From positions 453,100-517,099 of the forward strand of contig CAWFAS010000004.1 in NCBI GenBank assembly GCA_963813895.1: a DNA stretch of 64,000 bases, given 5' to 3'. The position numbers and the translations under genes are program-made. Numbering within the stretch: position 1 is the first letter of the stretch; every line of letters begins with the position of its first letter. The notes beneath the pieces are model-generated. The model was not told where the DNA came from. It did not search any database and saw nothing but the letters and a program-made list of their open reading frames with translations. This stretch comes from an uncultured Gammaproteobacteria bacterium. Lineage in GTDB: Bacteria; Pseudomonadota; Gammaproteobacteria; JAURND01. Shown here piece by piece: positions 45,695-46,265 of the stretch.

Positions 45695-46265
45695 GATAGA
45701 TAGCTTGTGGTTGTTAGCACAGATTAAAAATTAGCACTGTATTCCCCCTCTCCCGCGAAAGGAGTTTGAAAAAAATCTCTGAACCTATGCGCGGGAGAGG
45801 GTCGGGGAGAGGGCCTGGTATATGGCCTCTAACACCACTTCAATATCCTGCAAGACCTCATGATTCCAAAACCGTAAGACCTGAAATCCTTTTTTACTCA
45901 ATACAGTTGTCCTTCGAATATCATAAGCTTGCTGCTCTTGATGCTGACCGCCATCAAGCTCAATCACCAGATGCTTTTCATAGCAGACAAAATCCACTAT
46001 GTAACATTCAATCGGTACCTGTCTTTTAAATTTGTATCCCAAACGGTGAGCTCGTAAATAATACCAAAGACACCGTTCAGCATCTGTGCTTCTTGTTCGC
46101 AACTCACGGGCCCGCTGCTTCATTCATAACCCTCTCCCCGACCCTCTCCCGCGCATAGGTTCAGAGATTTTTTTCAAACTCTTTTCGCGGGAGAGGGGGA
46201 ATACAGTGCTAATCTTTAATCTGTGCTAACAACCACAAGCTATCTATCCACTCTAACTTCCCATG
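45695..46265. mobile_element. DUF559 endonuclease-like gene flanked by perfect ~135-bp inverted repeats (putative selfish unit)
   Basis: 45695-45830 and 46125-46265 are exact reverse complements (gtggatagatagcttgtggttgttagcacagattaaa...gggagagggtcggggagagggcc). The single ORF lies between them. Confidence 0.6.
45785..46123 (-). CDS. DUF559 / Vsr-like endonuclease-domain protein
   Basis: TDAERCLWYYLRAHRLGYKFKRQVPIECYIVDFVCYEKHLVIELDGGQHQ matches the DUF559 (restriction-endonuclease-like fold) signature. Confidence 0.7.
   Translation of the reverse strand: MKQRARELRTRSTDAERCLWYYLRAHRLGYKFKRQVPIECYIVDFVCYEKHLVIELDGGQHQEQQAYDIRRTTVLSKKGFQVLRFWNHEVLQDIEVVLEAIYQALSPTLSRA

What the first reader, a model, noticed from the sequence alone, without database searches (positions are those of the whole stretch)
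45695..46265. DUF559 endonuclease gene flanked by perfect 135-bp inverted repeats (selfish mini-element?)
A single 112-aa DUF559 (Vsr/restriction-endonuclease-like) ORF is flanked by two arms that are exact reverse complements over ~135 bp. Each arm ends in the GGGAGAGGG-type motif shared with the dispersed repeats. An exact 135-bp IR implies recent mobilisation or gene conversion. This arrangement suggests a TIR-bounded element whose only cargo is a small endonuclease, possibly the autonomous partner of some MITE families here.
Basis: seen in the sequence. Interest (0 to 1): 0.55.

Follow-up and report, generated by a model that had tools for sequence, protein, structure and literature searches.

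The report
Nuclease gene nested in triplex-motif palindrome
A small, intact Vsr-like (DUF559) nuclease gene sits at the centre of a 733-bp palindrome whose inner arms are inverted copies of the known BoxC/PIT/TM intrastrand-triplex repeat. The same gene-between-two-triplex-motifs module recurs across bacterial phyla, so it may be the missing protein partner of these unexplained repeats.

Summary
The inverted repeat is real but neither perfect nor 135 bp. The ungapped arms are 151 nt with 3 mismatches, and the repeat extends to about 205 nt per arm (45607-45813 / 46130-46339).

The 112-aa ORF (45785-46123, minus strand) is an intact DUF559 nuclease under purifying selection.

The inner ~70 nt of each arm is an intrastrand-triplex motif (the BoxC/PIT/TM repeat): a pyrimidine tract, a loop, a purine tract, and a mirror-repeat purine tract. 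The third tract faces the gene on both sides. One arm encodes the protein's C-terminus; the other lies just upstream of the start codon.

- The window holds 28 such motifs (0 in shuffles), including a gene-deleted copy at 49768-50013.
- In two independent sets of about 75 homologous loci from many phyla, about 68% have the motif upstream, about 68% downstream, and 51-63% on both sides. Background is 0.05-0.11 per kb.
- Arms match the dispersed motifs of their own genome.
- The source genome appears to carry at least 3 gene copies, and relatives carry the module at other loci.

Best reading: a selfish nuclease/repeat module, homing-like or RAYT-like. The mechanism is inferred, not shown. I found no published DUF559-triplex-motif link in the library searched.

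The parts
45607..45730 (.). Outer left arm of the palindrome, locus-specific. It lies 65 nt upstream of the uvrB start at 45542.
   Evidence: Pairs with 46213-46339 at about 92% with two small indels. No other copy in the window or in any fetched locus except L002, which is the same locus.
45731..45743 (+). Boundary motif TTAGCACTGTATT, just outside the triplex motif. A degenerate second copy, TTAGCACAGATT, lies at 45714-45725.
   Evidence: Conserved at the outer edge of both arms in the window, L001, L087 and L088, in the remnant copy, and next to dispersed short-loop motifs at about 30892, 53689 and 62509.
45744..45813 (+). Left triplex-type motif: Y-tract CCCCCTCTCCCGCG (45744-45757), 32-nt loop, R-tract CGCGGGAGAGGG (45790-45801), spacer TC, third tract GGGGAGAGGG (45804-45813). 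The third tract is gene-proximal.
   Evidence: Found by my own motif finder. Folds as a hairpin: ssDNA MFE -16.5 kcal/mol, z -3.0. Positions 45788-45813 encode the C-terminal ...ALSPTLSRA on the minus strand.
45785..46123 (-). DUF559 (Vsr-like PD-(D/E)XK) nuclease gene, 112 aa, intact. Its last 9 codons lie inside the left triplex motif.
   Evidence: Pfam PF04480 E 3.6e-43. PDB 3HRL E 1.1e-28. 50% identical to E. coli YcjD. D44, E55, D57, Q60 and H61 are invariant in the 24-sequence alignment. dN/dS is 0.06-0.23 against relatives.
46130..46199 (-). Right triplex-type motif, the inverted copy of the left one. On the plus strand: third tract 46130-46139, spacer GA, R-tract complement 46142-46153, loop, Y-tract complement 46186-46199. 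On the gene strand its purine third tract ends 6 nt before the ATG at 46123 and could serve as a Shine-Dalgarno sequence.
46200..46212 (-). Boundary motif AATACAGTGCTAA, the inverted copy of 45731-45743.
46213..46339 (.). Outer right arm of the palindrome, the inverted copy of 45607-45730.
49768..50013 (.). Gene-deleted sister copy: motif(+) 49783-49854, a 72-nt spacer that partly aligns to the 3' end of the DUF559 gene, and motif(-) 49927-49996.
   Evidence: Arms are 87 nt, 87% complementary to each other and 83-86% identical to the arms of the full copy. The alignment shows the internal deletion. tblastn picks up SICQTLSPTLSR.
16436..16558 (.). Example of a gene-less convergent motif pair (a ~125-nt MITE-like unit). 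Further copies lie at 40486-40610 and 60358-60481.
   Evidence: This copy sits at the apex of another palindromic repeat whose motif-free copies are at about 22945-23008 and 56340-56402.

Best explanation
This locus is one copy of a conserved, repeated module. A small Vsr-like DUF559 nuclease gene lies between two inverted copies of the intrastrand-triplex repeat (BoxC/PIT/TM: pyrimidine tract, loop, complementary purine tract, short spacer, mirror-repeat purine tract), with the third tract facing the gene on each side. It is the gene-bearing form of the triplex-motif pairs and solo motifs scattered through this genome at one per 2.3 kb. SHOWN: the anatomy; the cross-phylum gene-motif association and its orientation; the match between arms and same-genome dispersed motifs; more than one copy and different loci in relatives; gene-less and gene-deleted pairs; purifying selection on the gene. 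INFERRED mechanism (about 0.35-0.4 on its own): the nuclease nicks or cuts at, or next to, the structure formed by a motif pair or palindrome apex (hairpin, cruciform or triplex). The break is repaired by recombination from a gene-bearing copy, using the 35-90-nt arms as homology. This would copy the gene into gene-less pairs, as in homing, and homogenise the arms. Deletion between the arms would regenerate gene-less pairs and solos. The upstream motif may also gate translation, because its third tract lies where a Shine-Dalgarno sequence would and can pair with the pyrimidine tract.
For: Anatomy. Nuclease identity and integrity. Window motif density: 28 motifs against 0 in five shuffles. Association, set 1 (77 genes from GTDB genomes spanning Legionellaceae, Dehalococcoidia, Nitrospira, Rickettsiales, Omnitrophota, Pseudomonas and others): upstream motif in 50, downstream in 50, both in 39; background 0.11 per kb. 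Set 2 (metagenomes): 52/73, 52/74 and 42/67; background 0.05 per kb. The retrieval peptides were internal to the protein, and the upstream arm is non-coding, so selection bias is unlikely there. Orientation: upstream '+' 102 vs '-' 20 of 151; downstream '-' 103 vs '+' 33 of 152. Mirror symmetry: the third tract fits a mirror copy better than a direct copy in 30 distinct asymmetric tracts against 6, with recurrent A-to-T substitutions. This is the design that Holder et al. 2015 showed folds into a triplex in vitro (PMC4666352). Co-variation: arms share a median 0.54 of 11-mers with distant motifs of the same locus, against 0.00 across loci. Copy number and relocation. Three copies of a gene-less pair unit lie at different sites, one at the apex of another palindrome. 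Independent hints from the literature: DUF559 is 14-fold enriched among CDSs hit by predicted IR-mediated inversions (PMC9881135). Transposase/DUF559 segments are intragenomic recombination hotspots in L. pneumophila (PMC12308824). E. coli ycjD stands where the eef operon was lost, at least twice independently (PMC12817139), and carries a canonical downstream motif in the ST69-type allele.
Against: No cleavage activity or target is known for any DUF559 protein. No clean occupied-versus-empty allele pair was recovered: the nearest relatives are not syntenic upstream of uvrB. No target-site duplication is visible, and there is no transposase, so the way solo motifs reach new sites is unexplained. 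About a third of homologous genes lack a detectable motif on a given side. Motifs persist without the gene: only 62% of complete E. coli genomes carry ycjD, and Holder et al. list 23 motifs in K-12, of which only #9 lies beside ycjD. The subfamily is rare on plasmids (45 of 72,556 records) and phages (2 of 50,697), so no transfer vehicle is evident. The outer locus-specific palindrome is not explained with certainty: it could be insertion into a palindrome apex or fold-back copying of one flank.
Confidence: 0.55

Rival explanations
1. RAYT-like arrangement. DUF559 acts in trans as the nuclease that creates, spreads or maintains the dispersed triplex-motif repeats, for instance by nicking the folded motif on single-stranded DNA at replication forks. 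The gene itself stays put between two motifs, as RAYT genes sit between inverted REPs.
For: The flanking inverted motifs match the dispersed motifs of the same genome. There are many more motifs than genes: 28 motifs and 1 intact gene in 64 kb. Gene-less pair units occur in several copies.
Against: A ~110-aa PD-(D/E)XK nuclease has no known strand-transfer chemistry. The gene itself is multi-copy, occurs at different loci in relatives, and decays into remnants, unlike typical single-copy, vertically inherited RAYTs (established knowledge of RAYTs, from memory). Motifs persist in lineages without the gene.
Confidence: 0.2
2. Host-serving, structure-specific nuclease. DUF559 processes hairpin or triplex structures formed by these repeats, limiting replication stalling and instability. 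The flanking motifs are cis-regulatory (an SD-sequestering 5' structure and a 3' stabiliser) or simply mark a gene that recombines with its substrates.
For: Strong purifying selection, dN/dS 0.06-0.23. Homology to the repair nuclease Vsr. The third tract lies where a Shine-Dalgarno sequence would, and the Y-tract can pair with either purine tract. The motifs are linked to local genome instability (PMC4666352).
Against: Patchy presence: 62% of E. coli genomes, and absent at the orthologous site in close relatives. Multiple copies, pseudogenes and deleted remnants occur within one genome. Cross-phylum identities of about 60%, equal to within-family identities, point to horizontal spread. The same motif on the 3' side in inverted orientation is not needed for regulation.
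Confidence: 0.15
3. Invertible segment. The long inverted repeat exists to flip the gene, or the adjacent uvrB promoter region, as a programmed switch.
For: A 200-nt IR at 95-98% identity is a good recombination substrate. DUF559 CDSs were flagged as enriched among predicted programmed inversions (PMC9881135).
Against: No invertase or recombinase lies nearby. Neighbours are uvrB and two ORFs without Pfam matches, and the nearest transposase (IS110 family) is 6 kb away. Inverting a whole gene between its own arms changes no coding sequence. In most taxa the arms are only 35-45 nt of triplex motif.
Confidence: 0.04
4. An ordinary gene that happens to lie between two copies of an abundant repeat, i.e. 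a chance juxtaposition in a repeat-rich genome.
For: The window is extremely repeat-rich, with 28 motifs in 64 kb.
Against: The same juxtaposition, orientation and spacing recur in about two thirds of about 150 homologous loci, in genomes where the background is only 0.05-0.11 motifs per kb. The protein's C-terminus is encoded by the motif in most homologues.
Confidence: 0.01

Closest known systems
BoxC / PIT elements / TM intrastrand-triplex repeats (Hoyne et al. 2000; Holder et al. 2015, PMC4666352)
   Same: The same design, CCCTCNCCC-N3-6-GGGNGAGGG-N3-GGGNGAGGG. Several dispersed copies in the window fit the E. coli consensus exactly, for example 6845-6881 CCCCTCTCCCCTCGCGGGAGAGGGTTAGGGAGAGGGG. 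They are intergenic, often occur as inverted pairs, and are associated with variable loci.
   Different: The arms at this locus have a 32-nt loop closed by a GCG clamp and a 2-nt spacer. [quoted passage not shown] Here a DUF559 nuclease gene sits between the two motifs.
REP / REPIN - RAYT systems
   Same: A gene flanked by inverted copies of a short GC-rich palindromic repeat that is also dispersed through the genome as singlets and inverted doublets. The flanking copies match the genome's own repeat family.
   Different: The protein is a Vsr-like PD-(D/E)XK nuclease, not an HUH/Y1 transposase. The repeat carries a third mirror-repeat tract (triplex design) and no GTAG-type head. The gene is multi-copy and decays.
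Free-standing homing endonuclease genes, including the Vsr-like (EDxHD) I-Bth0305I family
   Same: A small selfish-looking nuclease gene from the Vsr/DUF559 clade (PMC3424549) that is patchy, multi-copy, decaying, and embedded in a repeated sequence that could serve as both target and homology.
   Different: No intron or intein context. The putative target is a dispersed structured repeat rather than a unique conserved gene site. Cleavage is untested. The PADLOC 'homing endonuclease' model matches only weakly (E 0.0033).
MITEs / IS elements with terminal inverted repeats
   Same: Inverted ends, several copies, and short non-coding derivatives.
   Different: No transposase of any known class and no target-site duplication. 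The inverted ends are structured triplex motifs, and an additional locus-specific outer palindrome surrounds them.
Vsr very-short-patch repair endonuclease
   Same: Same fold superfamily. A YcjD profile detects Vsr (PMC1189080).
   Different: TIGR00632 scores 18.8 bits against a cut-off of 97.85. No adjacent cytosine methyltransferase.
E. coli YcjD and N. gonorrhoeae 3HRL 'endonuclease-like protein' (DUF559 representatives)
   Same: 50% identity to YcjD over 107 aligned residues, and a strong match to 3HRL (E 1.1e-28 over 93 residues). Both also have triplex motifs next to the gene.
   Different: In those species the arrangement has decayed. K-12 lacks the upstream motif and 12 nt of the downstream one. 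Neisseria has a degenerate upstream motif and a direct rather than inverted flank repeat.

Membership tests
Pfam DUF559 (PF04480) / COG2852 YcjD-like | Match to the family profile above the curated cut-off | tested here: met
   146.3 bits against a cut-off of 20.6, E 3.6e-43, covering profile positions 4-108 of 109. PDB 3HRL E 1.1e-28.
Pfam DUF559 (PF04480) / COG2852 YcjD-like | Conserved acidic/His core of the PD-(D/E)XK-like site is intact | tested here: met
   D44, E55, D57, Q60 and H61 are invariant across 24 homologues, including the window protein. Their catalytic role is inferred from the superfamily, not tested.
NCBIfam PRK09767 (YcjD equivalog) | Score above the equivalog cut-off | tested here: not met
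   108.2 bits against a cut-off of 218. It is the same family but not the E. coli orthologue.
Vsr mismatch endonuclease | TIGR00632 score above cut-off | tested here: not met
   18.8 bits against 97.85.
Vsr mismatch endonuclease | Genetic linkage to a C5-cytosine methyltransferase | tested here: not met
   Neighbours are uvrB, two ORFs without Pfam matches, NTP transferase and lpxB.
BoxC/PIT/TM intrastrand-triplex repeat | Pyrimidine tract + complementary purine tract + third purine tract that mirrors the second (T allowed opposite A) | tested here: met
   Both arms and 26 other sites in the window pass the motif finder, against 0 in shuffles. A mirror copy beats a direct copy in 30 distinct tracts against 6 across gene-flanking motifs.
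BoxC/PIT/TM intrastrand-triplex repeat | E. coli consensus spacing: loop N3-6, spacer N3 | tested here: not met
   The arms at this locus have a 32-nt loop and a TC spacer. Dispersed copies such as 6845-6881 and 17742-17780 do meet it. The arms are therefore a long-loop variant.
BoxC/PIT/TM intrastrand-triplex repeat | Actually folds into a triplex | not testable with these tools
   ViennaRNA models only Watson-Crick hairpins. Triplex folding was shown in vitro for the E. coli motif by Holder et al..
REP-RAYT system | Associated protein is an HUH/Y1 (IS200/IS605-like) transposase | tested here: not met
   The only Pfam matches are DUF559 and MTES_1575.
REP-RAYT system | Gene flanked by inverted copies of the genome's own dispersed repeat | tested here: met
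DNA transposon / MITE | Terminal inverted repeats | tested here: met
DNA transposon / MITE | Target-site duplication | tested here: inconclusive
   None is visible at the boundaries of the window copy, the remnant, L001 or the three 125-nt pair units. The exact ends are uncertain because outer palindromes continue beyond them.
DNA transposon / MITE | A transposase (autonomous copy) | tested here: not met
   The IS110, ISAs1-like and IS5 genes found inside some homologous elements are secondary insertions.
Homing endonuclease gene | Occupied and empty alleles of the same site | tested here: inconclusive
   Gene-less convergent pairs and a deleted remnant exist, but no orthologous occupied/empty pair was recovered.
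Homing endonuclease gene | Nuclease cleaves the empty site | not testable with these tools
   Needs biochemistry.
Programmed invertible element | Dedicated invertase/recombinase nearby | tested here: not met

The most novel reading that the evidence does not exclude
DUF559/YcjD-type nucleases are the long-missing protein partner of the BoxC/PIT/TM intrastrand-triplex repeats. Together they would form a previously unrecognised, cross-phylum class of selfish element: a lone Vsr-like nuclease, flanked by triplex-forming inverted motifs, that spreads through gene-less motif pairs and palindrome apexes by break-and-repair. This would explain both the origin of these repeats and the genome instability seen around them.
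Probability: 0.4. Interest if true: 0.85.

Novelty: new variant of a known kind. Interest (0 to 1): 0.74.

Why it matters
Two long-standing unknowns would be tied together and become testable. Holder et al. 2015 (PMC4666352) state that BoxC/PIT/TM repeats are highly conserved and occur in more than 260 prokaryotic genomes. They fold into stable triplexes in vitro and mark unstable loci. No function, associated gene or means of spread was found. From memory, the BoxC name dates from the early 1990s.

DUF559 (E. coli YcjD; PDB 3HRL) is a very widespread small nuclease-fold family with no reported function in the papers I found.

A specific nuclease-repeat partnership predicts:
- a substrate for the enzyme;
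- a source for the repeats;
- a mechanism for the rearrangements around them, for example the eef operon/ycjD replacement in E. coli and the DUF559 recombination hotspots in Legionella.

It would add a nuclease-only counterpart to the REP/RAYT paradigm. It would also explain why automated screens flag DUF559 genes as 'programmed inversion' targets.

Tried and rejected
- Exact-sequence look-ups of the window protein, P0001 and P0242 found no contig on record. The other copies in the source genome therefore could not be read. Copy number rests on cluster membership and contig lengths.
- Empty-site search: the UvrB relatives at 89% and 84% identity were fetched. Their upstream regions are not syntenic with the window, and orf201 has no homologue in L084. 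This shows only that the element is absent there and that the uvrB-aminotransferase gap is expanded here.
- My first mirror-versus-direct test used fixed 9-mers and was dominated by self-symmetric GGGAGAGGG cores (98/42/77). I replaced it with a purine-run test.
- Rfam: only sub-threshold chance hits.
- The promoter/terminator scan found nothing above shuffle expectation.
- The outer arm has no other copy in any sequence held.
- Plasmid and phage carriage is rare, so no transfer vehicle was identified.
- E. coli: ycjD occupies a single locus in nearly all genomes that carry it (median 1 place per genome, highest 2; 5 of about 3,380 places are on plasmids). I therefore found no sign of recent spread of the gene to other sites there.
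- No target-site duplication was found at any boundary inspected.
- The readings as a Vsr orthologue, a transposon with transposase, an invertase-driven switch, and a chance juxtaposition were each considered and rejected on tested features (see the membership table).
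Full report
**1. What is at the coordinates**

The region holds one ORF of 112 aa on the minus strand (45785..46123). It matches Pfam DUF559 (E 3.6e-43) and, more weakly, REase_MTES_1575. It matches the solved 'endonuclease-like protein' 3HRL (E 1.1e-28) and is 50% identical to E. coli YcjD. It is far below the cut-offs for Vsr and for the YcjD equivalog.

Residues D44, E55, D57, Q60 and H61 are invariant in an alignment of 24 homologues. Against relatives, dN/dS is 0.06-0.23. The gene is therefore intact and constrained. Compared with most homologues it lacks five N-terminal codons and starts at the internal Met.

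**2. The inverted repeat**

The repeat is real but was mis-described.
- Ungapped arms 45663-45813 / 46130-46280 are 151 nt with three mismatches. The longest exact run is 52 nt.
- With two small indels the repeat continues outward to about 45607 / 46339. The whole palindromic unit is therefore about 733 bp.
- An independent contig from another sample (L002) is 100% identical to window 43413-45711 and stops inside the left arm.

**3. Anatomy of an arm**

From outside to inside, each arm has four parts.
- (a) About 125 nt that are specific to this locus. There is no other copy in the window or in any fetched sequence apart from L002, which is the same locus.
- (b) A boundary motif, TTAGCACTGTATT.
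- (c) CCCCCTCTCCCGCG, a 32-nt loop, then CGCGGGAGAGGG.
- (d) Spacer TC, then GGGGAGAGGG.

Parts (c) and (d) have the design of the bacterial intrastrand-triplex repeat: a pyrimidine tract, its complementary purine tract, and a third purine tract. That repeat is known as BoxC, PIT element or TM. Its E. coli consensus is CCCTCNCCC-N3-6-GGGNGAGGG-N3-GGGNGAGGG, and it folds into a stable triplex in vitro (Holder et al. 2015, PMC4666352).

The third tract faces the gene on both sides. On the 3' side the motif encodes the protein's last residues...ALSPTLSRA. Most close homologues in the alignment end in LSP(T/A)LSR(E/A) for the same reason. On the 5' side the purine third tract ends 6 nt before the ATG. 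That is where a Shine-Dalgarno sequence would lie.

**4. The window is saturated with the same repeat class**

A simple finder was used: 8-nt tracts, at most 1 mismatch in the hairpin and in the mirror tract, T allowed opposite A. It reports 28 motifs in 64 kb and none in five shuffles. They fall into at least three sequence families.
- Some copies fit the E. coli consensus exactly.
- Many form convergent pairs, with third tracts inward as around the gene. Others form divergent pairs.
- At 49768-50013 there is a sister of the DUF559 element with the same long-loop arms. [quoted passage not shown]
- A ~125-nt convergent pair unit occurs three times at different sites. One copy sits at the apex of another palindromic repeat that also exists without it.

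**5. The module is general**

The genome scan used internal peptides of the protein (LG[YF]KFKRQ, IELDGGQH). It returned 80 loci at 51-69% identity. They come from Legionellaceae, Rhodocyclaceae, Dehalococcoidia, Nitrospira, Rickettsiales, Holosporales, Omnitrophota, Pseudomonas, Stenotrophomonas and others.

| Measure | Set 1: genomes | Set 2: metagenomes |
|---|---|---|
| Correctly oriented motif within 120 nt upstream | 50 of 77 | 52 of 73 |
| Correctly oriented motif at the 3' end | 50 of 77 | 52 of 74 |
| Both | 39 of 77 | 42 of 67 |
| Background more than 600 nt away, both strands | 0.11 per kb | 0.05 per kb |

- Local alignment of the two flanks exceeded the shuffled controls in most loci.
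- Orientation is strongly biased. Upstream, '+' occurs in 102 and '-' in 20 of 151. Downstream, '-' occurs in 103 and '+' in 33 of 152.
- Tract sequences differ between taxa (GGGAGAGGG, GGGGGAGG, GGAGGAGAGGG, GGGGGAAGG and others), but the architecture is kept.
- Among distinct asymmetric purine tracts, the third tract fits a mirror copy better than a direct copy in 30 cases against 6. A-to-T substitutions recur. This is what a purine-motif triplex allows.
- Arms resemble the distant motifs of their own locus far more than those of other loci. The median shared 11-mer fraction is 0.54 against 0.00.

**6. Copy number and relocation**

- The 90% cluster of the protein has three members. One is the window protein. 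The second is a 97%-identical 112-aa paralogue, recorded on a contig of the same length (656,644 nt) as the one carrying the identical UvrB. The third is a frameshifted 97-aa copy on a 780,640-nt contig. That all three belong to one genome is an inference.
- An 82%-identical copy with the same arms and boundary motif lies between rluD and bamD in a related metagenomic contig (L001). That contig also carries a gene-less convergent pair and a solo motif.
- Neither of the two closest UvrB relatives (89% and 84%) has DUF559 upstream of uvrB.
- In the 84% relative, uvrB and an aminotransferase are adjacent. Here they are 8.4 kb apart. The gap holds the element, three ORFs without Pfam matches, the remnant and an IS110-family transposase.
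- No clean empty site and no target-site duplication were found.

**7. Outer palindromes**

In the window, in L088, L089 and L004, and in the gene-less pair of L001, the motif pair is nested in a longer inverted repeat whose sequence differs from locus to locus. Together with the pair unit that sits at the apex of a known palindromic repeat, this suggests insertion at palindrome apexes. Fold-back copying of one flank would give the same picture. I cannot separate the two.

**8. Literature**

- Every paper in the library containing 'DUF559', 'ycjD', 'COG2852' or 'PF04480' was listed. None links the family to triplex repeats.
- Holder et al. state that flanking genes showed no common function. 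[quoted passage not shown] Yet their motif #9 lies between fabI and ycjD. The ST69-type ycjD allele ends in a canonical downstream motif, of which K-12 has lost 12 nt.
- Milman et al. list DUF559 as 14-fold enriched among targets of predicted IR-mediated inversions. The conserved arms explain this.
- In L. pneumophila, transposase/DUF559 segments are intragenomic recombination hotspots.
- In E. coli, ycjD stands where the eef operon was lost at least twice.
- The library does not cover most subscription journals, so an earlier report cannot be excluded.

**9. Mechanism**

Shown: a conserved module of nuclease gene plus inverted triplex motifs. It is repeated, relocates, decays, is selectively maintained, and is matched to the dispersed repeats of its genome.

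Inferred, with about 0.35-0.4 for the specific step: a homing-like cycle. The nuclease would break DNA at the structure formed by motif pairs or palindrome apexes. Repair from a gene-bearing copy would then use the arms as homology.

Rivals:
- a RAYT-like trans-acting role (0.2);
- a host-serving structure-specific repair nuclease with cis-regulatory motifs (0.15);
- an invertible switch (0.04);
- chance (0.01).

Against all mobile-element readings, there is no known activity for any DUF559 protein, no vehicle (rare on plasmids and phages), and motifs persist without the gene.

**10. Verdict**

- The locus is a long-loop variant of a widespread, apparently undescribed partnership between DUF559 nucleases and BoxC/PIT/TM triplex repeats.
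- I classify it as a new variant of a known kind (selfish nuclease plus dispersed palindromic repeat). There is a substantial chance that it represents a new class once the mechanism is known.

Noticed in passing
window 16436-16558, 40486-40610, 60358-60481; host palindrome 16408-16586; motif-free copies about 22945-23008 and 56340-56402: A ~125-nt unit made of two convergent triplex motifs (GCTTTCTCCC...GGGGAGAAAGC) occurs three times in different flanks. One copy sits exactly at the apex of another palindromic repeat (TACCGAGCCGCGAC...) that exists elsewhere without it. This suggests insertion at hairpin or cruciform tips.
   Followed up: partly
window 5067-5233, 7095-7269, 23096-23288, 28415-28608, 41806-41969, 43301-43463: A second motif family (CCTTCCCCC-GCTTGC-GGGGGAAGG-TTA-GGAAGGGGG, a clear mirror repeat) occurs only as divergent pairs inside ~170-nt palindromic units with conserved outer ends (GCCAATAGAG...). 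No associated gene lies in the window. The same family occurs next to the DUF559 element in metagenomic locus L088.
   Followed up: partly
window 45543-53946: uvrB and a class I/II aminotransferase are adjacent in a relative (L086, 313-nt spacer) but 8.4 kb apart here. The gap holds the DUF559 element, three ORFs of 201, 801 and 502 aa without any Pfam match, the remnant motif pair and an IS110-family transposase. It looks like a hypervariable, lineage-specific island.
   Followed up: partly
window 52491-53570 and 53671-53770: An IS110-family transposase gene (DEDD_Tnp_IS110 + Transposase_20), followed by a 50-nt tandem duplication that carries the boundary motif GGAGAGGGGATACAGTGC of the triplex repeats.
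   Followed up: no
L167 1820-2070 (E. coli KE47) and L083 (K-12 fabI-ycjD-sapF): The ST69-type ycjD allele ends in a complete downstream triplex motif (CCCTCACCCCAACCCTCTCCCTGAAAGGGCGAGGGGG); K-12 has lost 12 nt of it. Downstream lie a second, partial DUF559 3'-end fragment with its own decayed motif, and then the published motif #9. ycjD is present in 3378 of 5426 complete E. coli genomes.
   Followed up: partly
L093 484-1425, L097 330-1472, L098 1624-2368: In three metagenomic homologues an IS (a transposase-like ORF that looks IS110-, ISAs1- or IS5-like by eye; not scanned against Pfam) lies between the DUF559 gene and one of its arms. This recalls the 'transposase + DUF559' repeated segments reported as recombination hotspots in L. 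pneumophila.
   Followed up: no
L168 480-515 and 1040-1100 (N. gonorrhoeae, gene of PDB 3HRL): The structurally solved DUF559 gene has a degenerate triplex motif about 45 nt upstream. Downstream it has a direct, not inverted, repeat of its upstream flank.
   Followed up: no
window 25714-25883 and 39080-39225; L084 4850-4910; L086 4790-4920: Another palindromic MITE-like family (…GTCGTCCCGCGGCTTGTCCGCGGGATCC…), with a perfect 60-nt inverted repeat at 25714-25773 / 25824-25883. Similar-looking 'GACGACG' palindromes lie in the uvrB upstream regions of both relatives.
   Followed up: no
window 38086-38317 / 56444-56675; 59465-59842; 3158-3319; 1505-1600: Other repeats, not examined: a 232-nt direct repeat at 96% identity 18 kb apart; a 189-nt tandem duplication at 99%; and 42-nt and 48-nt tandem arrays.
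   Followed up: no
L090 vs L091 (same metagenomic locus in two samples): The two contigs share the upstream flank and the gene but diverge exactly inside the downstream motif. L091 keeps only the third tract. This is an example of a rearrangement breakpoint within a triplex motif.
   Followed up: no
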